Source: an uncultured Armatimonadia bacterium
GTDB taxonomy: Bacteria; Armatimonadota; Zipacnadia; Zipacnadales; UBA11051
Reading direction: 5' to 3'
NCBI GenBank assembly: GCA_964622325.1
Contig: CAZUOJ010000001.1
Location: 65,399-129,398, forward strand
Length of the DNA: 64,000 nt
In this document: positions 19,421 to 54,925 of the stretch, in pieces
Position numbering within the stretch: position 1 is the stretch's first letter
How the letters are laid out: every line of letters starts with the position of its first letter
Notes under the pieces: model-generated
Databases searched by the model: none
The model's input: the letters and a program-made list of their open reading frames with translations, nothing else
Told to the model about the DNA's origin: nothing
Made by a program: the position numbers and the translations under genes

Positions 19421-20014
19421 TTATACAGACGCCAGTGGCGGCGGCTCGGGCAGCACTTCCCGCGGCCCTTGCAAATCGCCCATCGGGATATCAAAAGGCC
19501 GGCCCACAGAATAAAAGCCTAATTTTTCCAGCGCCTGTTTAGCCATCTCGCGCACCACTAACGCTGGCTTTTCGCCCACTTTCGCGCCCCCCTGCGCTGT
19601 TTGCAGGGCTGGAATAGCACGGCGATCCCCAATTTCGCCCAGCACCCACGCCGCCCGTCCTCGGAAGGGCTCCGCAAGATGGGCATTATTCAGCACTTTC
19701 GCCACTTCATCCACGACGGGATTGGGCTTTTTGGGATCCGGCTCGTTCACTTCGCGTCCCTTTTTGACAAGCGCCACTCCCGCCATATCATACAACTCGT
19801 CATCCCCTTGCAGCACATCCACTAACAATTCAATTGTACGCTCATCCTCCAGATTTGCTAACGCCAGCACGGCGGCGCGACGTGTCTCCACATCCTGCGA
19901 TTTTATGTCTTCGCTCAGCCGTTCCAGCGGATCAATCGTGCAGCCGTTTAAAATGATAGCCAAGGCAAAAAGCGCCCCGCTTAAAATTGTCTTGCGCATA
20001 AAAAGCCTCCCCAT
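19421..20014 (-). CDS. HEAT-repeat (PBS-lyase-like) lipoprotein
   Basis: It has a lipoprotein signal (…ALFALAIILNGC, a lipobox) and HEAT-like repeats (RRAAVLALANLEDERTIELLVDVL and RGRAAWVLGEIGDRRAIPALQTA). The probable start is MRKTIL at 19999. Confidence 0.6.
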   Translation of the reverse strand: MGRLFMRKTILSGALFALAIILNGCTIDPLERLSEDIKSQDVETRRAAVLALANLEDERTIELLVDVLQGDDELYDMAGVALVKKGREVNEPDPKKPNPVVDEVAKVLNNAHLAEPFRGRAAWVLGEIGDRRAIPALQTAQGGAKVGEKPALVVREMAKQALEKLGFYSVGRPFDIPMGDLQGPREVLPEPPPLASV

Positions 20015-20041
20015 AATCCTTATACTGATACTGAAAAATCA

Positions 20042-21103
20042 TTAATCGGGCAAACGCAGCAGTCGGACTGCTTCAGAAGCGGCGGCTCGTGCCCAGAAAT
20101 GATCGTCCATCTTGGCTTTCTGGATGGCTTCCGTGACTCGTGGCAACAAATCCGCTGAAGGGCGCGTCTTGCCCAGGGCATAAATACAGGCAATCCGCAC
20201 ATCCCCCACTTTGTCCTGTAAGCCCTCCAGCAGCCCGTTAATGGCCTTGCTCATGGCGCTTTCGTCAATGTTCGGCGAGCTGGCGGCGTCGCCCAAAGCA
20301 TAGGCGGCGGCCACACGCACTTCCGCGTCCGGCTCAGCCTCCCCTAAAGCTGTCACGAGGGCATCAATGCCGGCTTTGTCTCCCAGATGCCCGAGCGCCC
20401 GCGCCGCCGCAATCCGTACGGGAATTGTCGTATCAGGAGGCGGGGCAGGCGCAGCTGCTGTTGTGCCAGGGGCGGCATTCTCCGCTGCGGGCGCCGTCGC
20501 CGCTGGCGCTGGCCGCTCCGCCAGAGCATTGATAAGCGCGGAAGCGCCGCCCGGATCCCCAATCGCCCCTAATGCATAAGCTGCCGCCACCCGAATTTCA
20601 TTCTTTTCTTCTTTTTTGCCCAGAATGGCCGCGATCGGCTGGACGGCCTCCTTATAGCGCAATTGCCCCAAAGCCTGCATCGCTGCAATCCGCAGTACAG
20701 GATCCGGAGATTGCAAAGCGGCAATAAGATCGGCGGCGAATTTTTTATTGCCCGTCATCCCCAGAAGCCAGGCCGCCCGGGCCGCTGCCTCTCCTTGTCC
20801 CATCCGCACCATTTGCGCCAGTTGAGGCCCGATGGCGCCGCCGCGCTCGCGCAACGCGGCCAGCGCCTCCATCACTTTATCCGGCTCCTGGCTCGCCAGA
20901 TCGGCTAAATGTTTGCTGGTGCGGCGTACGGCGCTTATCCAGCTAATCACATACGCGGCCACGATGATGACAACAATGACGACGAGGACTTTAATGGTTC
21001 TCTTGCTCACACGCATCAGCTCACAAAAATTATGCTTTTTCGTCTCAGGCACGGAGTTGCCCGGCCTGTATGTCCCTGAATAGGCCTCAAATCTGAATGC
21101 CAA
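20042..21103 (-). CDS. Membrane-anchored HEAT-repeat protein
   Basis: It has an N-terminal TM (IKVLVVIVVIIVAAYVISWI). At least five HEAT-like units follow (PVLRIAAMQALGQL, VRVAAAYALGAIGDPG, VRIAAARALGHLGDKAG, VRVAAAYALGDAAS, VRIACIYALGK). A low-complexity Ala/Pro linker is present. The start is uncertain (TTG 21103 or ATG 21016). Confidence 0.6.
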   Translation of the reverse strand: MAFRFEAYSGTYRPGNSVPETKKHNFCELMRVSKRTIKVLVVIVVIIVAAYVISWISAVRRTSKHLADLASQEPDKVMEALAALRERGGAIGPQLAQMVRMGQGEAAARAAWLLGMTGNKKFAADLIAALQSPDPVLRIAAMQALGQLRYKEAVQPIAAILGKKEEKNEIRVAAAYALGAIGDPGGASALINALAERPAPAATAPAAENAAPGTTAAAPAPPPDTTIPVRIAAARALGHLGDKAGIDALVTALGEAEPDAEVRVAAAYALGDAASSPNIDESAMSKAINGLLEGLQDKVGDVRIACIYALGKTRPSADLLPRVTEAIQKAKMDDHFWARAAASEAVRLLRLPD

Positions 21104-21120
21104 TAGGGGAGTTCATCCGC

Positions 21121-23895
21121 CTAGCTCGCTTGCGCCTGGCGAATCAACTCCAGTTTTTCTTCAATGGCCTGTACTTGCGAGGGCTGCGGCCGCTCCGGCT
21201 CGGGCAGATGTTTCATCAATTGCAGCGCCATTGCATCCCCAATAATTTGCAATGTAGACGCCAGCCATTGTCGTTGATTCAGGCTTCGTTTGGCTTCGCC
21301 GCGGGCGCGCAGCGCCTTTTCCGTAGCGGGCTTTCCGATGGCCGCCAATATCGCCGCGGCCCACACGCGCGTCTGCTCATCCGGAGAATCCAGTTGTTCA
21401 ATCAGACTGTCCACGGGAATGTCCTGCATATTGGCCAGCGCCGTCGCCGCTGCCAGCCGCAATTGCGGATCAGTGGTCGCTGATGTGACTAATGAGATGA
21501 GCATTTCGCCGGCCTGGCCCATCTTCTTCTGCACGCCTTCGCCCAGCATCGCCGCCCGCCGCACGCCTATCATGGCAATGGCCTTGGCGGCGGGCAACGC
21601 CAAGGGTTCGCCCGGCTGCAGCAAAGCCTTGATTTTGTCAATCGCTTGTTCATTCGCCACAAAGCCCAGCGCTATCAAAGCATCTGTGCGCACATTGCGG
21701 GGCGCGGCGTTATCCAGCGCCGCCTCCACAAGCACAGGCTGCAAGGATTGCTGGAGCTGCTGTTGTGCCGCTTCGCTGCCCGCGGCCACCTCTCGCAGCA
21801 ATTGATTTGTGATGCTGGCTGTCTGGAACACTAGCGCAATGGCGGCCCGGCGCTTGGCATCTGTATCCTCTTTGTGCAAAAGCTCTTGCAACAATTTTTG
21901 CACGGGATCCATTCGCCAATTTTTGAGCAAAGCCAGCGCCACATCGCGTACTTCTCTTTGCGCATCCTGCAGGCCAGCCACAAGATTCGCCGTCGCCTCC
22001 GCATAGCCCAAGCGCGCCAGGGCGCGCAGGGCGGCGATGCGCACAATAGCCTCAGGCGCCTCAGCCGCTTTTTGCAGGGGCGGAAGCGCACTCGCCATCC
22101 CCGTCGCGCCCAATGCTCGGGCGGCGCTGGCGCGGGCGGCAGCAGGGGCGGCAGGATTAGCCAGCAGATGGCTGAGCGGCTCCACGGCGGGCTCGCCAAT
22201 TTCGCCTAACGCAATGCTGGCCCAATTCCGTACTTGTTCATTCCCTGAAAGCAGGCTTTGCACAAGCCCAGGCACGGCGGGCGCGCCAATGCGTGTAAGC
22301 GCCATCTGCGCCATATGCCCCACACGCACTTGCGGATGCGCCAGCGCCTTCAGCAGTGTCGGCACTGCGGGCGCGCCGATTTTGGCCAACGCATCCCGCG
22401 CCGCATAATACACTTGCCATTTATCATCCGTCAAAGCCGCGGCTAAGGCCGGAAGCACTTGTTGCGCCGCCGCCACGAGCGAAGACACGGAAGCATTGCG
22501 CAGGGCATCAGACGCCACTTGCCGCACTTCAGGCGACCCCGGATCGCGCAACGCTGCCGCCAAAAACACAATGGCTTCCGGCCCGCCAATTTGGGCCACT
22601 GTTTGCGTGGCTAACAAACGCACTTCCGGATTCGGCGAAGCCAGAGCCGGCTTCAGCGGCGGCACGGATAGAGCGCCGATACGAATCAGCGCCGTCGAAA
22701 TCTCCCGCGAGGCGCCCGAGACATTCGCTATAAGCATCGCCGCCATTTTCTCCGCCGCAGCCTTGGCTTCCGCAATCTTATAGGTTTTGGGATCAGGCGG
22801 GGGCGGGGCAGCGGGGGCGGCCGCGCCTGTTGCGCCCGTGGCTGTAGCCGGCGTTGCGGGCGTTGCTGGGGCCGGCGGCGTTGCTAATTTGGCCGCAGCC
22901 TCGCGCACATCGGCGCCAAGGACTTTCCCCAGGGCTTCCGCTGCCGCTTGCCGCACGCCCATATGCGCATCGTCCAGACGCGCCATTAATACAGGCGTGG
23001 CATTGTGCAGAAGCGCTAGGGCTCCCAGAGCGCCAATGGCCGCCGTCGCCTTCCGGCGAACGCCCCAATCCGGATCCTTCGTCGCGGCCACTAGTGGCCC
23101 CACAACTTGCGGCGCCTCTTCTGGCTTGAGTCCGGCCCCGATTGTGCCCAGCATTGTCGCCGCTTGCCCCCGCACATCGGGCGATTTATAAACTAATAGC
23201 TCCTTCGTTATCGCCTCGACGGCGTTGATTTTCATATTGAGCAGTGATGTAATGGCGCAATCCCGTTCACGATTATATTCAGCCGGCTCTTGGCCCGGCC
23301 GTGGCTCGCCGCGCTGAATGATTTTTACAAGCTCATGCGTCACGGGCTTGCCAATCCCTCCAAATACTGTCGCCACGCCAGTGCGAATGTAATCATCCCA
23401 GGCGCCCATCAGAGGCAGCAAATAGGGGATTGTCGGTTCGCCAATCGCTGTCAGCACGCCCGGAGCGCCTGCCCGCACGGCCGCATCTTTGTCTGTCAAC
23501 GCCTCCACAAGCGGCGGAATGGCTAAGGCCCCAAAACGAGCGACAACAGCCTGAATGCGCGGCTGCACAGGCGCATCCACTACTGTCCAGCAGCTCATAA
23601 GCTGAAACAGAGCTTTTTCGGTGCCAATAAAGCTCACGGCTTCCACGACATAATCCTGGATCCAGCGGGGCTGATTCGCCACGGCCTCCTGCAGTTTTTG
23701 CGTCTCAATAAGCCGATTTACGGCCGCCAGGCGCTGCACGGGAGAGCCGTATGCAATTTGATGGCGTAAACGATTGATTTCTCCTCGCCGCCCACTGGCA
23801 TAAATAATCAGACACAGGGCTAATCCCGCCAAAATGATGCGCGTTATTTGCCGCCTGAGCTGTTCGTCCACGGGCTTCAACTCCTCCTGCTTCAC
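21121..23895 (-). CDS. Large (924 aa) membrane-anchored HEAT-repeat protein
   Basis: It has an N-terminal TM (ITRIILAGLALCLIIYASG), an A/P/T-rich linker (ATPPAPATPATPATATGATGAAAPAAPPPP) and many dozens of xxVRxxAxxALGxIG HEAT/PBS-lyase-type repeats along its whole length. Confidence 0.65.
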   Translation of the reverse strand: MKQEELKPVDEQLRRQITRIILAGLALCLIIYASGRRGEINRLRHQIAYGSPVQRLAAVNRLIETQKLQEAVANQPRWIQDYVVEAVSFIGTEKALFQLMSCWTVVDAPVQPRIQAVVARFGALAIPPLVEALTDKDAAVRAGAPGVLTAIGEPTIPYLLPLMGAWDDYIRTGVATVFGGIGKPVTHELVKIIQRGEPRPGQEPAEYNRERDCAITSLLNMKINAVEAITKELLVYKSPDVRGQAATMLGTIGAGLKPEEAPQVVGPLVAATKDPDWGVRRKATAAIGALGALALLHNATPVLMARLDDAHMGVRQAAAEALGKVLGADVREAAAKLATPPAPATPATPATATGATGAAAPAAPPPPDPKTYKIAEAKAAAEKMAAMLIANVSGASREISTALIRIGALSVPPLKPALASPNPEVRLLATQTVAQIGGPEAIVFLAAALRDPGSPEVRQVASDALRNASVSSLVAAAQQVLPALAAALTDDKWQVYYAARDALAKIGAPAVPTLLKALAHPQVRVGHMAQMALTRIGAPAVPGLVQSLLSGNEQVRNWASIALGEIGEPAVEPLSHLLANPAAPAAARASAARALGATGMASALPPLQKAAEAPEAIVRIAALRALARLGYAEATANLVAGLQDAQREVRDVALALLKNWRMDPVQKLLQELLHKEDTDAKRRAAIALVFQTASITNQLLREVAAGSEAAQQQLQQSLQPVLVEAALDNAAPRNVRTDALIALGFVANEQAIDKIKALLQPGEPLALPAAKAIAMIGVRRAAMLGEGVQKKMGQAGEMLISLVTSATTDPQLRLAAATALANMQDIPVDSLIEQLDSPDEQTRVWAAAILAAIGKPATEKALRARGEAKRSLNQRQWLASTLQIIGDAMALQLMKHLPEPERPQPSQVQAIEEKLELIRQAQAS

Positions 23896-24084: not shown

Positions 24085-25656
24085 TTACATTGTGTCCAAA
24101 AGCCTCCAAAAAGCCGTCGCCGCCTCAGAAAAGCTAAAGCCATGTCCTCCCATCAGCGTCAATAAGCCGTCAAAGGAGCGGCAGCGTAAAATGGATATAA
24201 GCTCCTTGACTTCTCCTTGGCCGCGGCCGGGCACTGTCTCCGCTGGCCAGCCTGGCCGCCGGCAGCCATCCGCCAACATCAATTGCACTGTATAGCGCTT
24301 TAATTTCCCGCGCGTCCATGTCTTCAAAAAAGGATTCTCCCCCACATAGGCAAAATGACGCGGATTAAACGAAAAGCGAACCGCCGGATGATTGACTTCC
24401 TGCAATATAGCCGCACAGCTGGCACTATCTCGCCACAGCCCGGCCGCATGATTTTCAAGGAGCAAAATAATGTGATGCTGAGCGGCCACATTAGCGAGAT
24501 TCTGGAGAGCCGCCACGGCGCGGGGCATTTTTTCCGCTATCTCTGCCTCACTGGCTATCCAGGGCGGCAATTTGAAATATTCTGGCGCCAGCGCCTCCGC
24601 TTGCCGTAGCGTCTGTTCCAGCTTCTCTGCCTGTTCCGCCGCCGACGCTTCCCAATTGATTGCGCAGGGCCATACAGCCACATGGCAGTTAGCTTCCTGG
24701 ATTTGCGCACAAAAATGGGCGAAAGCTTCCGGGCCGGCCTGTTCCAGGGATTGCACAAGCTGGGAAGAAATTTCCAGCGTCTCAATGCCTTCAGCTTTTA
24801 TATCCCACAGGGCATTGCCGATTTCATCAGGCGGATATATGCCTGAAAGCAAGCCGCTGAGCGTAAAATCTTCGCCTAAAAGGCGTGCGCGTTTTATCTC
24901 CGCTCGCTGCTTCACACAATCCTCACAATGCGGATTGTCACAAAGCACGGCTGCGGGATTTTTCTGCAAAGCCTCCACAGCCAGCCGCAGAACTTCTGAA
25001 GCCTTCATCAGCCGACAAACCGCTTTGCCGATCCGTCCAATCCGCATCGCCCCGGCTTCTAAAAAGAGCCGATCCAGCTGGATAAAATCCCTGTGGGGGC
25101 CCGGGAATTGCTCCAGCACTTTTGTTTGCCGCACGCCCTGCTCATCGTAATAATCCCGCATAATTGTATTCAAATAGGGGCTTCCTACGAGCTCTTCGGC
25201 TAAATGCAGCAATGTATTGCGATCCTGATCGCAGCCGATAAAAAGCAAATAGCCATTTTCGTGTTTGGCGACGCGCCCCCAGGGCGATTCGGGGCCAATG
25301 GCTGTGGGCTGATTGATGTGGCCGGCTAAAATCTCGGCGGCTTTAGGCCCCACGCCAGCGGCAGAATGTGTCGGATGTATGCTCCGTATTGTTTCGGGCC
25401 GCCGCCAAAAACGATCCGTTATGGCTCCCACTGTGGAAGGTGTCTCATGAACATTGAATACGGCTGCGCTGCCCATCGCCGGCATTAAGATTGTGCCCGT
25501 AGGCCCGACAGCCTCAATTAGCGCATCTATCACAGTGTCGGCCCCGCCCTCTACATAGCCCAGCGCCGAGAGGGAAGAATGTACCATTAATATCATTCCA
25601 GGCTCCACGCCTAATTCTTGAAGCCCCTGTTTGATCTCTTCTTTCGTCAATGCCAT
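24085..25656 (-). CDS. Fusion protein: N-terminal AAC(3)-family (aminoglycoside 3-N-acetyltransferase-like) domain + C-terminal xylose-isomerase-like TIM-barrel (sugar phosphate isomerase/epimerase) domain
   Basis: The N-terminus MALTKEEIKQGLQELGVEPGMILMVHSSLSALGYVEGGADTVIDALIEAVGPTGTILMP is the AAC(3)/YokD-family opening. The C-terminal ~270 aa has the xylose-isomerase-like TIM-barrel pattern (…IETLEIS…, …HIILLLENH…, …MGGHGFSF…). The ATG at 25656 is preceded by GGAGTGGACGGACG. Confidence 0.55.
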   Translation of the reverse strand: MALTKEEIKQGLQELGVEPGMILMVHSSLSALGYVEGGADTVIDALIEAVGPTGTILMPAMGSAAVFNVHETPSTVGAITDRFWRRPETIRSIHPTHSAAGVGPKAAEILAGHINQPTAIGPESPWGRVAKHENGYLLFIGCDQDRNTLLHLAEELVGSPYLNTIMRDYYDEQGVRQTKVLEQFPGPHRDFIQLDRLFLEAGAMRIGRIGKAVCRLMKASEVLRLAVEALQKNPAAVLCDNPHCEDCVKQRAEIKRARLLGEDFTLSGLLSGIYPPDEIGNALWDIKAEGIETLEISSQLVQSLEQAGPEAFAHFCAQIQEANCHVAVWPCAINWEASAAEQAEKLEQTLRQAEALAPEYFKLPPWIASEAEIAEKMPRAVAALQNLANVAAQHHIILLLENHAAGLWRDSASCAAILQEVNHPAVRFSFNPRHFAYVGENPFLKTWTRGKLKRYTVQLMLADGCRRPGWPAETVPGRGQGEVKELISILRCRSFDGLLTLMGGHGFSFSEAATAFWRLLDTM

Positions 25657-25773: not shown

Positions 25774-26142
25774 TTATTCTCGTCGCCTTGTCATCTCCAC
25801 TTCCGCGTGATCCACAAGGCCTCCTAACGGCACGCTTTGCTTGCGCACGCGCACTGTGACTTCATCCACTTCAAATTGCGCTAAAATTGCCTGCGCCACA
25901 TCATGCGCCAGAGCTTCCATAAGCTGATAATGGCGCCCCGCCTCAATGCGGCGCACAAGCTCATACACGGCTTTATAGTCCACTGTTTTCGTCAGATCAT
26001 CCGTACGGCCCGCTTCTGTTAAATCACGCACTAATTCCAAATCCATCGCAAAACGTCCGCCTAGACGCCTTTCCGAATCCTCCACGCCATGATGGCCGTA
26101 AAAACTGATATTCACAAGCCGAATGCAATCCCGCTGTTTCAT
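25774..26142 (-). CDS. folB: Dihydroneopterin aldolase
   Basis: It is 122 aa. IRLVNISFYGHHGVEDSERRLGGRFAMDLEL… is the typical FolB signature. It overlaps the upstream gene by 4 nt. Confidence 0.8.
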   Translation of the reverse strand: MKQRDCIRLVNISFYGHHGVEDSERRLGGRFAMDLELVRDLTEAGRTDDLTKTVDYKAVYELVRRIEAGRHYQLMEALAHDVAQAILAQFEVDEVTVRVRKQSVPLGGLVDHAEVEMTRRRE

Positions 26143-26735
26143 TGTTCCGCTCTGATCAGGCGCTTTTCCGTCACGATGTACGGCACTGATATATCCTCAT
26201 CCTCTGTCGGCACATGAGGCACAATTTGCAATTCAAAAGCCGCCGCCACAATTTGCTCCGGCGCCATACGCGGCTTCAGCCGCGCCAAAAGCCGATCGTA
26301 AAAGCCGCCGCCATAGCCCAGACGATGCCCTTGCATATCAAAAGCCACGCCAGGAATCAAGGCGAATTCAATTTCCTCGGGCGTGGCTAAACGACAACAT
26401 TCTGGCCGTGGCTCCGTAATGCCCCATACGCCAGGCGCTGTATCTCTCTCCCGATCCACAATTTCATATAATTGCAATGTCCGTGAGGCATTATGCACTT
26501 TCGGCAAAAGCAGCCGTTTGCCCTGCCGAAACAATTCGGCTATAAAATCGTGCGTCATGACTTCGCTGCGAAAACAAGCATAGACAAGAAGCGTTTGGGC
26601 ATTTTGCACAGCCGGCATAGCCAATAAGGCTTCTGTAATAGGCTTGCTCAACGCTTCTCGTTCCGCCGGCGACAAAGCATCACGGCGCGCTAATATTTCT
26701 TTTCGCAAGGCGGCTTTACATTCCTGGATTGCCAT
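26139..26735 (-). CDS. 5-formyltetrahydrofolate cyclo-ligase (MTHFS)
   Basis: KAALRKEILARRDALSPAEREALSKPI…, …GYGGGFYDRLLARL… and an ATP-binding-type C-terminus match MTHFS. The probable start is MAIQEC at 26735. Confidence 0.75.
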   Translation of the reverse strand: MAIQECKAALRKEILARRDALSPAEREALSKPITEALLAMPAVQNAQTLLVYACFRSEVMTHDFIAELFRQGKRLLLPKVHNASRTLQLYEIVDRERDTAPGVWGITEPRPECCRLATPEEIEFALIPGVAFDMQGHRLGYGGGFYDRLLARLKPRMAPEQIVAAAFELQIVPHVPTEDEDISVPYIVTEKRLIRAEQ

Positions 26736-26736
26736 T

Positions 26737-27946
26737 TTAAGCTGTCGTGTTGCGTTGTACAATAGCGTCAGCCACACGCGCCACATCAATCATTGCCGCG
26801 ACATCATGAACACGCAAGATGTGAGCGCCATTTAGCACGCCAATGGCGCACATTGCCGCTGTGCCCCAGATACGTTGTTCGACAGGCTTGCCTGTAATCT
26901 CGCCAATTGTCCTTTTGCGAGAGGGGCCCAGGAGAATGGGACGTCCCAGACTCCGAAATTCGCTAAGCCGGCGCACAAGCTCTAAATTGTGCTCGCGTGT
27001 TTTCCCAAAGCCAAAGCCTGGATCAATGATGATATGCTCTTCTTTAATGCCTGCTTCCGTAGCCGCTTCGATGCGATCGGCCAAGAACTCATAAACTTCC
27101 TTCATAACATCTTCGTAATGGGGATTTTCCTGCATTGTGCGCGGCTCGCCCTGCATATGCATAATGATGACGGGTACGCCTGCTTCCGCCGCCAGCTCCA
27201 GCATCCCAGGCCGGCGCAGGCCATACACATCATTGATGATGGACGCGCCAGCGGAAAGCGCCAGCCGACAGACTTCTGGCTTACTGGAATCAATAGATAT
27301 GGGCACATCCACGCGCGCAGCTAATCCTTCAAGGACAGGAAGAACGCGCTGTAGCTCTTCTTCTGCCGAAACGCCCAGGCTGCCCGGACGCGTCGATTCC
27401 CCGCCCACATCTAAAATGTCCGCCCCTGCTGCCACAAAATCCACGCCCTGCTGAATTGCTGCTTGGACATTTGCCCCCAGTCCGTCTCCGGAAAATGAAT
27501 CCGGAGTCATATTAATTATGCCCATGATCCGTGTGCGTGTAAAATCCAGATCAAAATGGCGCCAACGCAACGGCGGCGGCGTTTGGGCATGGCATGCTAA
27601 GACACGTTCAATTTCTTTTCCAATGGCTTGCAAGCCGAAAGGCTCATTGGCCAGTCTCGGCACAAGACGCGCAAAATGCCGCGCATCGCCTATCAGCAAG
27701 ACAGGCCGCGGCGTATCATCAAAAGCGGCCACATGCCGGGACACACAGGCCTCGCCGCCCAGGCTGAGCATAAGCTGTTTGAGAACAGCTGCCGCCTTCC
27801 CGCGCACATTTTCAAGGCGCAAGAAGATGGGCTGGGCTTTGGGGGCCATTATTCGTATGCCCTCGGGAGCTACGCCCACACGCGCCATTTCCCGAGCAAT
27901 TTCTTCTGGCGAAGATAAATTCAACAAGCGCACGTAATGTGACATA
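26737..27946 (-). CDS. folP: Dihydropteroate synthase with an ~125-aa N-terminal extension of unknown function
   Basis: The C-terminal 280 aa match DHPS (IMGIINMTPDSFSGDG…, …DILDVGGESTRPG…, …INDV…). The N-terminal ~125 aa (MSHYVRLLNLSSPEEIAREMARVGVAPEGIRIMAPK…) are not DHPS-like. The real start is likely MSHY at 27946, not the ORF-track 28170. Confidence 0.8.
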
Positions 27947-28126
27947 GATTTCTTAATTTCTTTTTTTCTGTTGGTTGATGTTGTATAATTTGTGTGATAA
28001 TGTTCTTTCTCTTTCCTTGTTTTTGAGAGCATGCGATACAAATAAGGACGCCAATTATTGCGTTTGATATGTTGCAAAAAGCGTCCTGCGGAACAAATTA
28101 AAGCCTGATGGCTGTATTTTGGGGCC

Positions 28127-44429: not shown

Positions 44430-45329
44430 ATGATGTATTGGCGCCGAAAGTGTTTGTTGTTGTTTCTTTTTCTGTTGTTTTGCAGTTGGCTGTTTGTGAC
44501 GCCCTATCAGCCGTCTTCAAAGCTTCGTAGCAGGAGTTCCGCCTCTTCGCCACAAATGCTTTCCGCGTCGCCTCCTGCCGAGGGAATAGCGGCAGCGGCG
44601 ATGATGTTCTCTTTCCCTGTTTTTCGCAATTCACAGCGACAGCGAAGCCTTCATGTTGCGCGCACATGGGAGTTGATTGGCGGCGTAGGCGTCAATGTAG
44701 TCCGGATTAATGTTCAGGCGGCACAGGTGCGCGTGATTCCGGGCTTCGCTGCCCAGGCCGATCCCCGCCGAGGCTATTTTCCGCGGGAGAACTTTTATCG
44801 CATTGTACAGCGCTATCAGCCGCGTGTAGCAATTAACGGCACATATTTTCATTTGCTTAATGGACAGCCGACGGGGCCGATTGTGCGCCACGGGCAATTT
44901 CTATACGATGGGCGCTGGGGCACCACAATTTGTTTTGATGAGCAGGGCCACATTTCTTTTCGTTTTCAAAGTGGCATATATGGGCGCCATCGGGGCTGGG
45001 CCGGCGTCAGCAACGCCATCAGCACAGGCCCCACGCTCGTGCGCGATGGACAGCTGTGGCTGCAGCCCCGCCGCGAAGGCTTTCGGGATCCGGCGATTTT
45101 TCGCCGCGCCCGGCGCAGCGCCATCGGCTTAACACACAATAATCGGCTTGTGCTTGTCACAATCCATACGCCAATCACGCTTAATAAGCTCGCGCACATT
45201 ATGTTGCGCCTCCATTGTCGGCATGCGGCAAATTTAGACGGCGGCGCTTCCAGTGCTTTATATTGTAATGGAGTTTTTGTGACAACGCCGCAGCGCAAGC
45301 TGAGCAATGTGCTGCTCGTATATGATTGA
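44430..45329 (+). CDS. Secreted phosphodiester glycosidase-family protein (DUF2233/NAGPA-like)
   Basis: It has a signal anchor (CLLLFLFLLFCSWLFV). …RVAINGTYFHLLNGQPTGPIVRHGQFLYDG… and …NLDGGASSALYCNG… are the conserved motifs of phosphodiester glycosidases ('uncovering enzyme' homologues). Confidence 0.55.
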   Translation: MMYWRRKCLLLFLFLLFCSWLFVTPYQPSSKLRSRSSASSPQMLSASPPAEGIAAAAMMFSFPVFRNSQRQRSLHVARTWELIGGVGVNVVRINVQAAQVRVIPGFAAQADPRRGYFPRENFYRIVQRYQPRVAINGTYFHLLNGQPTGPIVRHGQFLYDGRWGTTICFDEQGHISFRFQSGIYGRHRGWAGVSNAISTGPTLVRDGQLWLQPRREGFRDPAIFRRARRSAIGLTHNNRLVLVTIHTPITLNKLAHIMLRLHCRHAANLDGGASSALYCNGVFVTTPQRKLSNVLLVYD

Positions 45330-50388: not shown

Positions 50389-50600
50389 GATATTAGCCCT
50401 CAGACGAGAAAACAGCTAATGAAGATTAACAAGGCGTCAAGCTTGTAGGATTGGGGCAGAAGATAAAAAAGCAAATAGAATGCAAGGCAACGCCAACGCC
50501 TTTGGCGAAGACAAAGGAAAGAGCATTTTGCAGGCTTAACTAGACAAAAACAAAAGAATATTTTACAGATACTGGTATGCATAAACAGGAGGAGAAAAAA

Positions 50601-51362
50601 ATGAAGCTTGGCCTTGTGACATATCAAATAGCCAAAGATTGGACATTAGAGCAAATTATAGTAATGTGTGAAAAGACAGGCCTGGAGGGCGTAGAATTAC
50701 GAACAACACATGCGCACAAGGTAGAATTGAATCTGGAGGCGCAGGCACGGCAGGAAGTGCGGCGTAAATTTGCTGAAAGCGGGCTTGTCTTATGGGGCTT
50801 TGGCACGACTTGTGAATATCATTCTCCGGATCCAAACATATTGCGGGCAAACATTGAAGAGACAAAAGCGTGGATAAAATTAGCTGACGATACGGGCGCT
50901 ATAGGCGTAAAAGTGCGGCCGAATGCCTTTGTTGAGGGCGTGCCCGAAGAACAGACATTGCGCCAAATTGCCGAAGCGCTGCAAGAATGCGGCGAATACG
51001 CCAAAGAATATGGCATAAAGATCATGCTGGAAGTCCATGGCCATGGCACACAGGAGCCCCGGCATATTCGTTCCATTATGCAGATGTGTCAACATCCTAA
51101 TGTGGGCGTCACATGGAATTGTAATGCGGGAGAAGTTGTGAATGGCTCCATCAAGGCTAATTTTGAGCTCCTGGCCCCTTGGATTTGCTCTGTCCATATT
51201 CATGATCTATATGAGCCCTATCCTTATAAAGAATTAATTGCGCTGCTCCAAGAGCAAAGCTTCACAGGCTTTTGCCTGATTGAAATGCCCGAAAGCTGTG
51301 AGCCAGAACGCCTGCTCAAATATTATGTGCTGCTATGGAAGGAGTGGACACAAAAGCAATGA
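50601..51362 (+). CDS. Xylose-isomerase-like TIM-barrel protein (sugar phosphate isomerase/epimerase family)
   Basis: AGGAGG sits 8 nt before the ATG at 50601. MKLGLVTYQIAKDWTLEQIIVMCEKTGLEGVELR… is followed by …KIMLEVHGHG… and …VHIHD… metal-ligand motifs typical of AP_endonuc_2/xylose-isomerase-like barrels. Confidence 0.75.
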   Translation: MKLGLVTYQIAKDWTLEQIIVMCEKTGLEGVELRTTHAHKVELNLEAQARQEVRRKFAESGLVLWGFGTTCEYHSPDPNILRANIEETKAWIKLADDTGAIGVKVRPNAFVEGVPEEQTLRQIAEALQECGEYAKEYGIKIMLEVHGHGTQEPRHIRSIMQMCQHPNVGVTWNCNAGEVVNGSIKANFELLAPWICSVHIHDLYEPYPYKELIALLQEQSFTGFCLIEMPESCEPERLLKYYVLLWKEWTQKQ

Positions 51363-53812
51363 TGCGTTCACATTTCTTCCTGTGGCTCGGCCTAATTTTT
51401 CTATCCCTGAACGGCATAACAGGGAGAATATGGGCGCAACAGGAGGCGGGAGAAATTCTTTTGCCTTTTCCCAATGGGAGCTTTGAGCAGGGGCTGGAGC
51501 GTTGGCACGTCGGGGGCCGTCTTCCGCTGGCTGAGATTTCCCCCCAGCAGGCGGCGCAAGGCAAGCAATCCTTAAAAGTGACAGATGCCAGCGCAGAGGA
51601 AGGCTCAGATATCCGCAGCGATCGTATTGAATTGCCTGGGCCAGGAATATATGAGCTGCGGGGCAGCTATTTGGGCGTCTCCGGCGAAGGGCTGGGCTTA
51701 TATGTGCGAATATATGATAGAGCGGGCAATTTGCTCAATGGCGAAGAAGCGCATATTATTGGCCTGGGCGGCACTGATAAACAATGGCGCAGCATTGCGG
51801 CGCCTGTTTATGCGCCAGAAGGCGCCGCCTGGGCGGAATTGTGGATTCACAGCTATATGAAGGCGATTGTAACAGGCTATTTAGATGAGCTTCATCTTGT
51901 CAAGCTCGCCTCCAGTGCCCAGCCGCCGTGGCCGGGGCAATATAAATTGCGTCCTACAGACAAAGAGCGGCTTACGGAGGCAGATGTTGTGGGCCCTGAT
52001 GGGCTTGTGTATCCGAATTGGACGCGTTGCGGCGTTCAAGGCGGCATTCCTAAAATCCCCCCTTTTGCGCCAATTGAGCAATATGGCGGCCGTGCAAATG
52101 ATGAAGCGGATGACAGCGCAGCATTGCAGGCGGCGTGCGAGGCAGCAGGACAGGCTGGCGGGGGCGCCATCCTTTTGGGGCCCGGGACATATTATCTGGA
52201 TCGGCCTGTGACAATTCGCCATGATGGAATTGTCATCCGGGGCGCTGGACAGAGGCAAACGCGTCTTGTTTTTCGCTATGCGTTGCCCGCGTCCGGAAGC
52301 GCCTTTTTCAGTCCGACGCCGGGCGCAAAAGTTGGACGCGAGACACGCTTGGAATTGCATTGCCGTCCCACAGGCCTGCAAACAATGGAAATATTTGTAG
52401 ATGACATTTCTATTGGACAATGGATGCGGGGCCCCCATTCGGGAAACACATTTTCTTTTGTATTGTACGGGCGACAGGCGCTAGAAAAAGCACAGCCGGG
52501 GCCCCATATATTGCGCGGAATAGGCACATACGACGATGGCACAAAAACACAATGTGAAATCCCGATTGTCTTGGATCCACAATACAAAGATGAGACATTC
52601 GTTCCCAGTACGACAGCAGCGTTGACATTTCAGGGGCGGGGCTTGAGCGGCCCGCGTGTGCTGCTGACAAAGAATGGCAAACGCGGCAGCCGAATTATTG
52701 AAGTGCAGGATGCCTCCAGCTTCCGCGCCGGGGATTGTATTATGATTGAAGCGCCAGCCACGGAACGCTGGAAAAAATTGACGCGCAATGCGTGTCCGTG
52801 GGGGATTTATCGCCGCTATTTTGTGCAAATTGATGCTGTGGCGGGCAACACAATTACATTGCAACAGCCGCTGCGTTTAGAGTTTCCTGTGGAGGATGGC
52901 ACCTATGTGCAAAAAATAACGTCCATACAGCGCTGTGGCGTAGAAGATTTTACGATTGAACAAACAGAGAATCTCTGGATAAGCAGCGTATTTTTCTCAT
53001 ATGCATGGAATTGCTGGGCGCGCGGCGTTACTGTCAAAAAATGCGGACGCTTTCCAGTGTATGCCGGCGCGGCGAAATTCTGTGAAATCCGAGATTGTAT
53101 TTTCGAGGATGCTTGGTTTAAGGGCGGCGGAGGCACAGCCTATGCTGGCTGGGAGAATGCAAGTGATTGTTTGATGGAGAATGTGGAAACATTCAAGCTG
53201 CGCCATGCGCCGCTCGTTCAATGGGCCGCCAGCGGCTGTGTGATTCGGAAGAGCATTTTTCACGAAAGCGACGGACAATGGCATTCGGGCTGGACAAATG
53301 AAAATCTCTTTGAACAATGCCTTATTGAGGCCCAAACGGGCAATGGCGCCTACGGCTATGGGCTATGGGCTTCGCCGCCAGAAGACACAGCGCATGGGCC
53401 TAATGGCCCCCGAAATGTTGTCTATAATTGTGTCATAAGCTCGCCTAAGAGCGGGCTGTGGATGGGCGGCATGAACGAAAATTGGCTTATTGTATATAAT
53501 CAATTTCAGGTCCAATCGGGCGTGGGCGTATTCGCCAAAACAGCGAGCTTTGATCATATTATAAAAGGCAATGTTTTTATCTTGCAGGACGGCCGTTCGC
53601 CCATGTGCCGGCTGCTCACGCCGGATTGTGTCGGCATTGAAATTATTGATAATCTGCTCTATGGCGGGAATGGCAAATTTGTGGAAGGGCTTGCGACGCC
53701 AGCAGTATTGCAAGGCAATAAGGCTTTTCCTCTGGGGGCAGAAGCGGCTGCCTCTCCTCAGCCTCCTGTTCCCTCCATATATGAATGGCAAATTCAACAC
53801 AGCCGGCTATGA
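51358..53812 (+). CDS. Secreted CBM-like + right-handed parallel beta-helix (pectate-lyase-fold) protein, putative polysaccharide lyase/hydrolase
   Basis: Its start overlaps the upstream stop (ATGA). It has a signal peptide (MMRSHFFLWLGLIFLSLNGITG). …FPNGSFEQGLERWHV… is CBM4/9-like. …GGGAILLGPGTYYLDRPVTIRHDGIVIRGAG… is the pectate-lyase_3/beta-helix N-terminal cap. Repeated beta-helix rungs lie downstream. Confidence 0.55.
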
Positions 53813-53833
53813 TTCTGAAGGGGAGCAAATGAG

Positions 53834-54925
53834 ATGAACACAGTGAAAATGGGCGTGTTAGGCGCAGGCAGAGGCATTTCCTTAGCCAAAGCCATTTCTT
53901 TGGCGCCAAGCGCAGAGCTTGTCGCCCTGTGTGATGTGAACGAAGAGCGTCTGGCCGCCGCAGCCGCTATGACAGGCGTTCAGCGCACATTTACGGATTA
54001 TGAAGCCTTGCTGGAAGCCGATGACATTGAAGCTGTGATTGTGGCCTCGCCTATGCCGCTTCATGTGCAGCATTCTGTGCAAGCCTTACAGGCAGGGAAG
54101 CATGTGCTGTGTGAAGTGACGGCTGCGACGAGCCTGGAGCAATGCTGGGAGCTTTTAGAAGCCGTACGGGCTACAAAGCGTAAATATATGCTCGCGGAAA
54201 ATTATTGCTGGTATCGGCCCTGGACGCTCGTGATGGGAATGCTGCGCGCCGGCTTATTCGGCGAATTGTATTATGGCGAGGCCGAACAGCTGCAAAATCT
54301 TAAAGGCGCCTTGCCTCCGCCCGATAGCGGCTACAATTGGCGCACGGCTGAGCTGGCCATGCGCCAAGGCCATCAATACATCACACATGATCTGGGCCCG
54401 CTGTATCAGGCTTTTGGGGAGCGCATCAAGACAGTCGTATGTATGGGCTCCGGGCAGCATCATCTTTCCTGGGCCAGAGCGGATGACACATGCACAGTTC
54501 TTTTGGAAACACAAAATGGCCATCTGCTGCGCATCAGGCTGGATTTTTTCTCCAATCGGCCAGACAATTTCACATATTATGGACTGCAAGGCACGCAGGC
54601 AGCCTATGAAGGGCCGCGTGCGCCAGGAGAGCAGCATCGCATTTATATTCATGGCCACACACGGCCGGGCACATGGGATAGCTTGTGGGATTACGAAGAA
54701 TATCTTCCCCCTATGTGGAAAATGTTGCCTCCCGAGGCCATTAACGATAGCTATGATGGCGGCGCGCCGCTGATGATTGAAGAATTTGCGCGTTGCATTC
54801 TGGAGGACAAGAAGCCGCCGATTGATGTCGTGGACGCTCTGAATATGACAGCCCCAGGGCTGATGTCTGAAATCTCGCGCCAAAAAGGCGGCGTGCCTGT
54901 GGATGTTCCTGAATTCAAACTCTAA
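53834..54925 (+). CDS. Gfo/Idh/MocA-family oxidoreductase
   Basis: VKMGVLGAGRGISLAKAI… is the Rossmann region. …ALQAGKHVLCEV… follows. RBS GGGGAG precedes the start. Confidence 0.8.
   Translation: MNTVKMGVLGAGRGISLAKAISLAPSAELVALCDVNEERLAAAAAMTGVQRTFTDYEALLEADDIEAVIVASPMPLHVQHSVQALQAGKHVLCEVTAATSLEQCWELLEAVRATKRKYMLAENYCWYRPWTLVMGMLRAGLFGELYYGEAEQLQNLKGALPPPDSGYNWRTAELAMRQGHQYITHDLGPLYQAFGERIKTVVCMGSGQHHLSWARADDTCTVLLETQNGHLLRIRLDFFSNRPDNFTYYGLQGTQAAYEGPRAPGEQHRIYIHGHTRPGTWDSLWDYEEYLPPMWKMLPPEAINDSYDGGAPLMIEEFARCILEDKKPPIDVVDALNMTAPGLMSEISRQKGGVPVDVPEFKL

What the first reader, a model, noticed from the sequence alone, without database searches (positions are those of the whole stretch)
24085..25656. 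AAC(3)-family acetyltransferase fused to a xylose-isomerase-like TIM barrel
The N-terminal ~260 aa begin MALTKEEIKQGLQELGVEPGMILMVHSSLSALGYVEGGADTVIDALIEAVGPTGTILMP, the hallmark of aminoglycoside 3-N-acetyltransferase (Antibiotic_NAT) folds. The C-terminal ~270 aa carry xylose-isomerase-like/AP-endonuclease-2 barrel features (…LEIS…, …LLLENH…, …GGHGFSF…). I am not aware of this domain fusion being characterised. The same window contains stand-alone Gfo/Idh/MocA dehydrogenases and TIM-barrel 'isomerases' of the 3-keto-sugar type. That suggests a pathway acting on amino-sugars or aminocyclitols (N-acetylation coupled to a keto-sugar lyase/isomerase step) rather than antibiotic resistance.
Basis: partly seen in the sequence, partly recalled or inferred. 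Interest (0 to 1): 0.5.

Follow-up and report, generated by a model that had tools for sequence, protein, structure and literature searches.

The report
Acetyltransferase fused to degenerate TIM barrel
This is a real, conserved but unstudied two-domain protein, an AAC(3)-IV-like N-acetyltransferase joined to a sugar-isomerase-type barrel that has lost its usual metal site; it looks like a chromosomal metabolic enzyme of Armatimonadota and allied phyla, not an antibiotic-resistance gene.

Summary

The acetyltransferase half keeps the TxΦHΦAE catalytic motif and the group-1 zinc cluster. It fails the NCBIfam resistance cut-offs, keeps only one of five aminoglycoside contacts, and never occurs fused on plasmids.

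The barrel lacks the β7 His and β8 Glu metal ligands and has Asn for the β6 Asp. A canonical isomerase or lyase activity is therefore not supported, although residues lining the pocket remain invariant.

Across phyla the gene sits in co-directional clusters with amide hydrolases (42 of 57 loci), DegT aminotransferases, Gfo/Idh/MocA oxidoreductases and sugar regulators. In this window it instead follows folP, a 5-FTHF cyclo-ligase gene and folB, a linkage confined to its own clade.

Best reading: an N-acetyltransferase for an amino-sugar- or aminocyclitol-like metabolite. It is a new variant of a known kind, of moderate interest.

The parts
24085..25656 (-). Complete CDS of the fusion protein (523 aa plus TAA stop)
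   Evidence: ORF list and translation. Full-length homologs of the same length. A GGAG lies about 12 nt upstream of the ATG.
24883..25656 (-). AAC(3)/Antibiotic_NAT half, aa 1-258, including the C-terminal zinc extension and linker helix
25195..25215 (-). Catalytic motif T148-L-L-H151-L-A-E154 (TxΦHΦAE)
   Evidence: Read directly from the sequence. T148, H151 and E154 are invariant in 36 homologs. The motif and its role are defined in PMC8956665. H151 aligns with the catalytic His154 of AAC(3)-IVa.
24916..24942 (-). Cys cluster C239-x4-C244-x2-C247 (VLCDNPHCEDC), a probable structural Zn site at the domain junction; it contains the invariant D246
   Evidence: Invariant in alignment A1. The three Cys align with H241, C247 and C250 of AAC(3)-IVa, and D246 aligns with Glu249. 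The Zn site in the AAC(3)-IVa C-terminal extension is described in PMC8956665. The fourth ligand (H188?) is inferred.
24088..24873 (-). Xylose-isomerase-like (βα)8 barrel half, aa 262-523, with a degenerate metal site
25774..26142 (-). folB (dihydroneopterin aldolase), the immediate upstream gene on the same strand, 117 bp from the fusion's ATG
   Evidence: PF02152, E=7e-33. The linkage is kept only in the window's clade.
26139..26789 (-). 5-formyltetrahydrofolate cyclo-ligase gene (mechanical ORF; the public gene call is about 198 aa)
   Evidence: PF01812, E=2e-43. Gene call in L090.
26737..28170 (-). folP (dihydropteroate synthase) with an N-terminal extension of about 150 aa (mechanical ORF; the public gene call is 402 aa)
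   Evidence: PF00809 at aa 216-455 of the ORF, E=1e-86. Gene call in L090.

Best explanation
The gene encodes a cytoplasmic, acyl-CoA-dependent (most likely acetyl-CoA) N-acetyltransferase of the Antibiotic_NAT fold, descended from the zinc-bearing 'group 1' (AAC(3)-IV-like) branch. H151, polarised by E154, would deprotonate a primary amine on a small carbohydrate-like metabolite, which then attacks the thioester. The substrate is most likely an amino sugar or aminocyclitol made or consumed by DegT-type transamination of a Gfo/Idh/MocA-generated ketone. The fused barrel follows directly after the zinc-bearing extension, which in AAC(3)-IVa contributes to the acceptor site. It has lost the canonical metal site, so it is not a classical isomerase, epimerase or dehydratase. 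Its still-conserved pocket (E295, N402, N431, D463, E482) probably binds part of the substrate or a partner. The protein works within an inducible sugar-utilisation module together with an amide hydrolase. That pairing suggests an acetylate-then-deacetylate ('protecting group') logic or a salvage logic rather than drug inactivation.

Shown: the architecture, fold, catalytic motif, loss of metal ligands, and gene linkage. Inferred: the acyl donor, the substrate class, the role of the barrel, and the direction of the pathway.
For: Domains and fold. The catalytic T148/H151/E154 are invariant across 36 homologs down to 41% identity, and the motif's role comes from PMC8956665. The Zn-extension residues and D246 (Glu249 in AAC(3)-IVa) are conserved.

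Not resistance-like: the best NCBIfam AAC(3) score is 144.7 against a cut-off of 420. None of 3318 plasmid matches covers the barrel half. The window is a housekeeping chromosomal region.

Barrel: E401 and N431 align with the AsbF positions I recall as Glu134 and Asp165. The fused barrels have no β7 His and no β8 Glu, whereas distant stand-alone relatives from the same search keep E/D/H/E. The invariant barrel residues lie at the C-terminal ends of strands β2, β5, β6 and β7.

Obligate coupling: the barrel subfamily has only 235 representatives among 1.84e9 proteins, and the strong hits are all fusions. Two apparently stand-alone copies are directly preceded by AAC(3)-like ORFs.

Context: in 57 loci with full flanks, 42 have a Cyclase-, Amidohydro_3- or Creatininase-family gene within 3 genes, co-directional in all but one case. 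Cyclase and Amidohydro_3 are mutually exclusive. The operon DegT, Cyclase, fusion, Creatininase, GFO recurs in Armatimonadota genomes, with permuted versions in Omnitrophota, Verrucomicrobiota and Lentisphaeria genomes. Regulators and neighbours are of the sugar-catabolic type: LacI, ROK, AraC, NAGPA, PfkB, class-II aldolase, GH127, GH2.
Against: There is no biochemical evidence, and no cultured carrier was identified. All partner-family hits are below the curated NCBIfam cut-offs, so the substrate class rests on family-level analogy. The window's own copy lacks every one of the recurrent partners within 64 kb and sits instead behind folate genes, so the module inferred from distant relatives (35-45% identity) may not apply to it. 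The cyclase-like partner itself lacks two expected metal-binding His residues, so its 'hydrolase' role is uncertain. Net charge does not discriminate against aminoglycoside binding.
Confidence: 0.5

Rival explanations
1. Bifunctional enzyme: the N-terminal half N-acetylates, and the C-terminal barrel is an active keto-sugar isomerase, lyase or dehydratase catalysing a consecutive step.
For: PF01261 scores above its gathering threshold. The closest structures are enzymes acting on keto-cyclitols and keto-sugars: Art22 isomerase, AsbF, IolE, IolI. Pocket-lining residues E295, N402, N431 and D463 are invariant. Gfo/Idh/MocA partners that could generate ketones are frequent.
Against: The canonical metal tetrad is not there. 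The β7 His and β8 Glu are absent in all fused members. The β6 Asp is Asn in 35 of 36. The β5 Glu is replaced in 5 of 36 (G, S, R, and Asn twice). More distant stand-alone relatives keep all four. The middle of the barrel is poorly conserved and partly deleted in 475-480-aa members.
Confidence: 0.15
2. Biosynthetic N-acetyltransferase for a nucleotide-linked amino sugar destined for a cell-envelope glycan, playing a role like WbpD, PseH or FrbF, rather than a catabolic enzyme.
For: The DegT partner's best NCBIfam hit is PseC (288 bits, below the 423 cut-off), and the GFO partner hits UDP-GlcNAc 3-dehydrogenase. FrbF, a member of this fold, acetylates a CMP-linked amine (my recollection of the reference cited). 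Cytidylate-kinase-like genes follow the fusion in Armatimonadia. A CTP_transf_3 cytidylyltransferase lies 6 kb downstream in the window.
Against: No glycosyltransferases, sugar-nucleotide dehydratases, synthases or flippases recur next to it. The regulators are LacI, ROK and AraC two-component types typical of inducible catabolism. Amide hydrolases are the dominant partners.
Confidence: 0.15
3. Genuine aminoglycoside 3-N-acetyltransferase (an intrinsic resistance or proto-resistance gene) with an accessory domain.
Against: The score is about one third of the equivalog cut-off. Trp63, Asp67, Glu185 and Cys190 of AAC(3)-IVa are not conserved. The sequence is as close to BA2930 and YokD, which have no aminoglycoside activity, as it is to AAC(3)-IVa. 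It is never found on plasmids as a fusion. It sits in conserved metabolic operons across many phyla.
Confidence: 0.08
4. Folate-related function in this lineage, for example acting on pABA, p-aminobenzoyl-glutamate or a pterin amine, or compensating for the folK that is missing after folB.
For: Same strand, directly after folP, 5-FCL and folB, with no predicted terminator or promoter in the 117-bp gap. There is a 4-nt overlap with folB in L001. The order is kept in five related genomes at 68-95% identity. No folK homolog is present in the window or those loci.
Against: The linkage disappears at 63% identity or lower, and 70+ other loci lack folate genes. The one exception, L055, has a normal folB-folK pair 4 kb away. 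The fold has no kinase features. The rest of the source genome, where folK may lie, cannot be seen.
Confidence: 0.07

Closest known systems
AAC(3)-IVa (Antibiotic_NAT group 1; PDB 6MN3/6MN5)
   Different: About 36% identity only, and far below the NCBIfam cut-off. Four of five aminoglycoside-contact residues are not kept. It carries a 265-aa barrel after the extension. It is chromosomal, sits in metabolic operons, and is never plasmid-borne as a fusion.
FrbF, YokD and BA2930 (Antibiotic_NAT members without aminoglycoside activity)
   Same: They share the fold and motif and are precedents for non-resistance roles of this fold. Sequence scores are similar to those for AAC(3)-IVa (BA2930 102 bits, YokD 97 bits).
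   Different: Their alignments end at about residue 232, so they lack the Zn extension, and none carries a barrel domain. FrbF's substrate is a CMP-linked aminophosphonate (my recollection of the cited literature), and nothing here indicates phosphonate genes.
Xylose-isomerase-like barrels Art22 (8Z1I), AsbF (3DX5), IolE (3CNY) and IolI (1I6N)
   Different: Only 13-18% identity. The β6 Asp is Asn, and the β7 His and β8 Glu metal ligands are missing. The subfamily occurs essentially only with an AAC(3) partner.
Gfo/Idh/MocA plus DegT amino-sugar logic (e.g. WbpB/WbpE/WbpD, NtdC/NtdA, or IolG plus StsC for scyllo-inosamine; named from general knowledge)
   Same: In distant homologs the fusion is flanked by a Gfo/Idh/MocA oxidoreductase and a DegT aminotransferase, the standard pair that interconverts a secondary alcohol, a ketone and an amine on sugars and cyclitols. 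An N-acetyltransferase is the usual third enzyme.
   Different: The acetyltransferase here has the Antibiotic_NAT fold rather than LβH or GNAT. The amide hydrolases and catabolic-type regulators are not part of those biosynthetic systems. None of these partners is present in this window.

Membership tests
Antibiotic_NAT / AAC(3) fold (PF02522) | Profile match above the curated threshold over the whole domain | tested here: met
   181 bits against a cut-off of 25; profile positions 1-231 of 232.
Antibiotic_NAT / AAC(3) fold (PF02522) | Three-dimensional fold | tested here: met
Antibiotic_NAT / AAC(3) fold (PF02522) | TxΦHΦAE catalytic motif (Thr, His base, Glu) | tested here: met
   T148-L-L-H151-L-A-E154. 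T, H and E are invariant in 36 homologs. The motif is defined in PMC8956665.
Antibiotic_NAT group 1 (AAC(3)-IV-like) | Zn-binding Cys/His ligands in a C-terminal extension | tested here: met
   The invariant C239, C244 and C247 align with H241, C247 and C250 of AAC(3)-IVa. The fourth ligand is inferred, and metal binding itself was not testable.
Aminoglycoside-resistance AAC(3) (NCBIfam equivalogs) | Score above the curated equivalog or subfamily cut-off | tested here: not met
   AAC_3_IV 144.7 against 420; AAC_3 128.2 against 270; II, VIII and VIa all far below.
Aminoglycoside-resistance AAC(3) (NCBIfam equivalogs) | Conservation of the aminoglycoside-contact residues of AAC(3)-IVa (Trp63, Asp67, Glu185, Cys190, Glu249) | tested here: not met
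   Only Glu249 has a conserved counterpart (D246). Trp63 corresponds to M61, Asp67 falls in a deletion, Glu185 corresponds to E182 which varies in the family, and Cys190 corresponds to Pro.
Aminoglycoside-resistance AAC(3) (NCBIfam equivalogs) | Acetylation of aminoglycosides, or a resistance phenotype | not testable with these tools
   Needs an enzyme assay or MIC measurement.
Xylose isomerase-like TIM barrel (PF01261) | Profile match above the curated threshold | tested here: met
   46.5 bits against a cut-off of 31.1, aa 303-501. It is weak or absent in some homologs' precomputed annotation.
Xylose isomerase-like TIM barrel (PF01261) | (βα)8 fold of this superfamily | tested here: met
Xylose isomerase-like TIM barrel (PF01261) | Canonical divalent-metal ligands: Glu (β5), Asp (β6), His (β7), Glu (β8) | tested here: not met
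   E401 is present in this protein but not invariant. N431 replaces the Asp. The D-3 position of β7 is Met, Tyr or Val. The β8 position is Met, Ala, Lys or Trp. Distant stand-alone relatives keep all four. The AsbF ligand numbering is from memory and is consistent with the alignment offsets.
3-keto-sugar lyase/isomerase type barrels (LgdB, AL1, YcjR, CarB/C-like) | Closer similarity to these than to other barrels, plus a metal site | tested here: not met

The most novel reading that the evidence does not exclude
The fusion marks a previously unrecognised and widespread pathway for an aminocyclitol or amino sugar in Armatimonadota, the PVC superphylum and Omnitrophota. In this pathway an Antibiotic_NAT enzyme transiently N-acetylates the amine as a protecting group before Gfo/Idh/MocA oxidation and ring processing, and a dedicated amide hydrolase later removes the acetyl group. 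A metal-free derivative of the xylose-isomerase barrel has been recruited as the substrate-recognition module. This housekeeping family would then be the physiological ancestor-type of the zinc-bearing AAC(3)-IV group of apramycin/gentamicin resistance enzymes.
Probability: 0.15. Interest if true: 0.65.

Novelty: new variant of a known kind. Interest (0 to 1): 0.42.

Why it matters
The physiological roles of the Antibiotic_NAT fold outside drug resistance are almost unknown; FrbF is the only assigned case. This is a large, phylogenetically broad, chromosomal family with an intact catalytic motif, the AAC(3)-IV-type zinc extension and conserved metabolic partners. It offers a testable candidate for the native function from which AAC(3)-IV-like resistance enzymes may derive. 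It also warns against counting such genes as resistance determinants in metagenomic resistome surveys. Separately, it gives a clear example of a xylose-isomerase-like barrel that has shed its metal site yet stays under selection, always tied to one partner domain.

Tried and rejected
1. Literature on Art22, the closest barrel structure: two searches found nothing relevant. Only the PDB title 'isomerase Art22' is used.
2. The afdb50 fold library was unavailable, so occurrence in cultured organisms and UniProt names could not be checked.
3. Net charge and pI of the acetyltransferase half against AAC(3)-IVa: about -5 against -9, which does not discriminate.
4. Promoter and terminator scan of the folB-fusion gap: nothing beyond chance.
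This is suggestive but not interpretable without the whole genome.
6. NCBIfam naming of operon partners: every hit was below its cut-off, so no equivalog assignment was possible.
7. The idea that the window's other Gfo/Idh/MocA and TIM-barrel genes form a pathway with the fusion was rejected. They are in separate clusters, one about 25 kb away, in a housekeeping region.
8. Apparently stand-alone copies of the barrel subfamily (P0155, P0210) turned out to be preceded by AAC(3)-like ORFs on short, low-coverage contigs. They are split or frameshifted versions, not independent barrels.
9. The interdomain geometry of the model could not be examined, because coordinates are not exposed.
Full report

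HOW COMMON IT IS. The word-indexed search found 411 relatives, and nearly all of the best 120 carry both domains. Where a source names them, the name is 'AAC(3) family N-acetyltransferase', 'aminoglycoside 3-N-acetyltransferase' or 'TIM barrel protein', from Armatimonadota MAGs. A pattern scan of one genome per GTDB species found 234 genomes encoding a relative. The closest are Armatimonadia (up to 73% identity). At 35-42% identity there are Omnitrophota, Verrucomicrobiota, Lentisphaerota/Victivallales, Kiritimatiellia, Planctomycetota, Ratteibacteria and WS1. No paper in the searchable library mentions both Pfam families together, or Antibiotic_NAT together with a xylose-isomerase-like domain. 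The architecture is therefore present in databases but, as far as I can tell, has not been studied.

THE ACETYLTRANSFERASE HALF. The family's catalytic motif is TxΦHΦAE. The His is the base, the Glu polarises it, and the Thr stabilises the intermediate (PMC8956665). Here the motif reads T148-L-L-H151-L-A-E154, and T, H and E are invariant in all 36 aligned homologs down to 41% identity. H151 aligns with the catalytic His154 of AAC(3)-IVa (chain numbering is native +2, verified on five residues). An invariant C239-x4-C244-x2-C247 cluster sits at the domain junction. It aligns with H241, C247 and C250 of AAC(3)-IVa, that is, with the structural Zn2+ site that PMC8956665 describes in the C-terminal extension and calls conserved in 'group 1'. 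The invariant H188 is a plausible fourth ligand, but that is inferred. D246 inside the cluster corresponds to Glu249, which contacts the aminoglycoside in AAC(3)-IVa. The other four contact residues are not kept. Trp63 corresponds to Met. Asp67 lies in a segment deleted here. Glu185 corresponds to E182 in this protein but varies across the family. Cys190 corresponds to Pro. All NCBIfam AAC(3) resistance models score far below their cut-offs; the best is AAC_3_IV at 144.7 against 420. By sequence the domain is as close to BA2930 and YokD, which have no aminoglycoside activity, as it is to AAC(3)-IVa. Against 72,556 plasmids, 3318 records match, but none covers more than the first half of the query. 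Clinical aac(3)-IVa is 36.4% identical over aa 4-254. I conclude that this is a catalytically competent member of the fold, related to the zinc-bearing group-1 branch, but not demonstrably an aminoglycoside-resistance enzyme.

THE BARREL HALF. Enzymes of the PF01261 superfamily normally bind a divalent metal through Glu (β5), Asp (β6), His (β7) and Glu (β8). This is general knowledge of the family. Profile alignments of the C-terminal domain to solved structures place E401 ('LLLEN') on AsbF's 'LLETH' Glu and Art22's 'IENY'. They place N431 ('SFNP') on the Asp of AsbF 'NLD', Art22 'LTLDYGN' and IolI 'LDSFHF', and D463 on Art22's 'LKD'. I then aligned the fused barrels with the nearest stand-alone barrels recovered from 1.84 billion representatives. 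The more distant stand-alone proteins (P0177, P0180, P0208, P0241) keep the full pattern: …LLENE…, …WDPANF…, …HVHVKD…, …LEPH…. Every fused barrel has Met, Tyr or Val at the His position and Met, Ala, Lys or Trp at the final Glu position. The Asp is Asn in 35 of 36, and E401 itself is Gly, Ser, Arg or Asn in five members. The central part of the barrel is poorly conserved and partly deleted in 475-480-aa members. A canonical metal-dependent isomerase, epimerase, dehydratase or lyase activity is therefore not supported. The domain is not decaying, however. E295, N402, N431 and D463 are invariant and lie at the C-terminal ends of strands β2, β5, β6 and β7 in the model, which is the face that forms the pocket in (βα)8 barrels. 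The β7-α7 loop and helix, 'GxGEVKELISILRCRSFDG', is the most conserved stretch of the whole protein. The subfamily is also rare and tied to its partner. Only 235 representatives reach E≤1e-3, and the strong ones are fusions or fragments of them. Two apparently stand-alone copies (P0210, P0155) are directly preceded by AAC(3)-like coding sequence. My inference is that the barrel survives as a ligand-binding, substrate-recognition or scaffolding module of the acetyltransferase, attached right after the Zn extension that helps form the acceptor site in AAC(3)-IVa.

GENOMIC CONTEXT IN THE WINDOW. The gene is the last of a co-directional run: Gfo/Idh/MocA, Gfo/Idh/MocA, folP, 5-formyl-THF cyclo-ligase, folB, then a 117-bp gap and the fusion. 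It is followed by three HEAT-repeat proteins, TatD and a cytidylyltransferase. The gap has no convincing promoter or terminator. The rest of the window is housekeeping: biotin carboxylase, XseA, Dxs, NAD kinase, RecN, a 2-oxoacid:ferredoxin oxidoreductase, RecO, PolX and PNPase. There is one other PF01261 gene, at 50577-51362, next to a β-helix protein and a GH109-like Gfo/Idh/MocA gene, about 25 kb away. The folate linkage is reproduced in relatives of 68-95% identity (L001 with a 4-nt folB/fusion overlap, L008, L090/L091, L093). It is gone at 63% identity (L009, L092: MarR, fusion, Cytidylate_kin2, Amidohydro_3, DUF72) and absent from all other loci. The one exception is L055, where an ordinary folB-folK pair lies 4 kb downstream. 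No folK is detectable in the window or its clade relatives. That is odd, since the fusion occupies the place folK usually has, but it cannot be interpreted without the whole genome.

GENOMIC CONTEXT ACROSS THE FAMILY. I called ORFs in 88 sequences (the window and 87 fetched loci) and clustered them. Seventy-five carry distinct fusions, and 57 of those have at least two genes on each side. In 42 of the 57, a gene of the Cyclase (PF04199, 25 loci), Amidohydro_3 (D-aminoacylase-like, 16) or Creatininase (PF02633, 8) family lies within three genes. These are co-directional in all but one case (a divergent Creatininase gene in L068), and the adjacent ones are usually separated from the fusion by fewer than 40 bp. 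Cyclase and Amidohydro_3 never co-occur, which suggests analogous roles. DegT aminotransferases (8), Gfo/Idh/MocA oxidoreductases (12) and DUF72 (8) also recur. The operon DegT, Cyclase, fusion, Creatininase, GFO is found intact in five Armatimonadota-type genomes. Permuted versions occur in Omnitrophota, Verrucomicrobiota and Lentisphaeria genomes. It is flanked by LacI, ROK or AraC-type two-component regulators, NAGPA phosphodiester glycosidase, PfkB kinases with a class-II aldolase, GH127, GH2, heparinase II/III-like and CBM proteins. The partners hit PseC, IolG, UDP-GlcNAc 3-dehydrogenase, creatininase, MftE and IolN models, but all below the curated cut-offs. Every component has a precedent on amino sugars or on (amino)cyclitols: IolG, StrS/StsC-type DegT enzymes, IolN, IolE/IolI-like barrels, and AAC(3) itself acetylating an aminocyclitol amine. 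These precedents are from general knowledge. None of these partners is present anywhere in this 64-kb window.

MECHANISM PROPOSED. Most likely (confidence about 0.5), the protein is an acyl-CoA-dependent N-acetyltransferase that uses the H151/E154 dyad on a primary amine of a carbohydrate-like metabolite. A structural Zn site buttresses the acceptor cleft, and a metal-free barrel contributes recognition. It works in an inducible utilisation or salvage module together with an amide hydrolase. One chemically sensible logic is transient N-acetyl protection of an amine before oxidation next to it. Shown: the architecture, the fold, motif conservation, loss of metal ligands, and gene linkage. Inferred: the acyl donor, the substrate class, the role of the barrel, and the direction of the pathway. 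Four rivals are weighed in the structured fields: a truly bifunctional enzyme with a non-canonical active barrel (0.15); a biosynthetic nucleotide-amino-sugar acetyltransferase (0.15); a genuine aminoglycoside acetyltransferase (0.08); and a folate-related role in this clade (0.07).

NOVELTY AND VERDICT. Both domains belong to known families, and the gene is already in public databases under a generic and potentially misleading AAC(3) name. Three things appear to be new: the recognition of a large, multi-phylum fusion family; the degenerate metal site of its barrel and that barrel's obligate association with the acetyltransferase; and the conserved amidohydrolase/DegT/Gfo neighbourhood. I rate it a new variant of a known kind, of moderate interest (0.42). 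It would matter mostly as a handle on the native function of the AAC(3)-IV-type fold, and as a caution for resistome annotation.

Noticed in passing
window 25774-28170 (-): A folate cluster of folP, a 5-formyl-THF cyclo-ligase gene and folB has no folK; the fusion gene occupies the position folK usually takes after folB. No folK homolog was found in the 64-kb window or in clade relatives. A distant relative (L055:15759-16486) has an ordinary folB-folK pair.
   Followed up: partly
window 26737-28170 (-): The dihydropteroate synthase carries an N-terminal extension of about 150 aa (MSHYVRLLNLSSPEEIAREM...) with no Pfam hit. The Pterin_bind domain starts at residue 216 of the mechanical ORF, and the public gene call is 402 aa.
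   Followed up: no
window 19421-23895 (-): Three consecutive HEAT/PBS-lyase-repeat proteins (924, 353 and 197 aa) lie directly downstream of the fusion. The largest has an Ala/Pro-rich low-complexity stretch. The trio is conserved in relatives at 71-95% identity (L090, L093). Function unknown.
   Followed up: no
L040-L087 (e.g. L085:7363-8004, L049:9320-9979): The cyclase-like (PF04199) protein that most often flanks the fusion has the consensus 'm.GtYiD.PgH' where the family motif, from memory, is HxGTHxDxPxH. Two expected metal-binding His are replaced. It has no NCBIfam hit, so it may not be a conventional formamidase-type hydrolase.
   Followed up: partly
L088:786-2415 and L089:1-1099: These are split or frameshifted versions of the fusion, with AAC(3)-like ORFs immediately upstream of a separate barrel ORF. 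In L088 the AAC(3) part is itself in two ORFs on a 2.3x-coverage contig. In L089 the two ORFs overlap by 8 nt. Real gene fission cannot be told apart from assembly error.
   Followed up: partly
window 50577-54925 (+): A separate cluster of a stand-alone PF01261 barrel (261 aa), a large right-handed β-helix protein (825 aa) and a Gfo/Idh/MocA protein with a GH109 C-terminal domain.
   Followed up: partly
window 44430-45329 (+) and L049:4070-5827: A NAGPA-family phosphodiester glycosidase occurs in the window and also just upstream of the DegT, Cyclase, fusion operon in a distant Armatimonadota genome. This may be coincidence.
   Followed up: no
L001, L003, L009, L010, L092 (e.g. L092:8604-12075): In Armatimonadia the fusion is followed by a conserved trio: a Cytidylate_kin2 P-loop protein, a 540-aa Amidohydro_3 (D-aminoacylase-like, with the HxH…Cys…His…His…Asp pattern intact) and DUF72. 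From memory, DUF72 is itself a remote relative of the endonuclease IV/xylose-isomerase barrel.
   Followed up: partly
window 57885-61706 (-): A 1273-aa hybrid sensor kinase with at least five PAS domains, HisKA/HATPase and a receiver domain, next to a ZnuA-like binding protein and a metallo-β-lactamase-fold protein.
   Followed up: no
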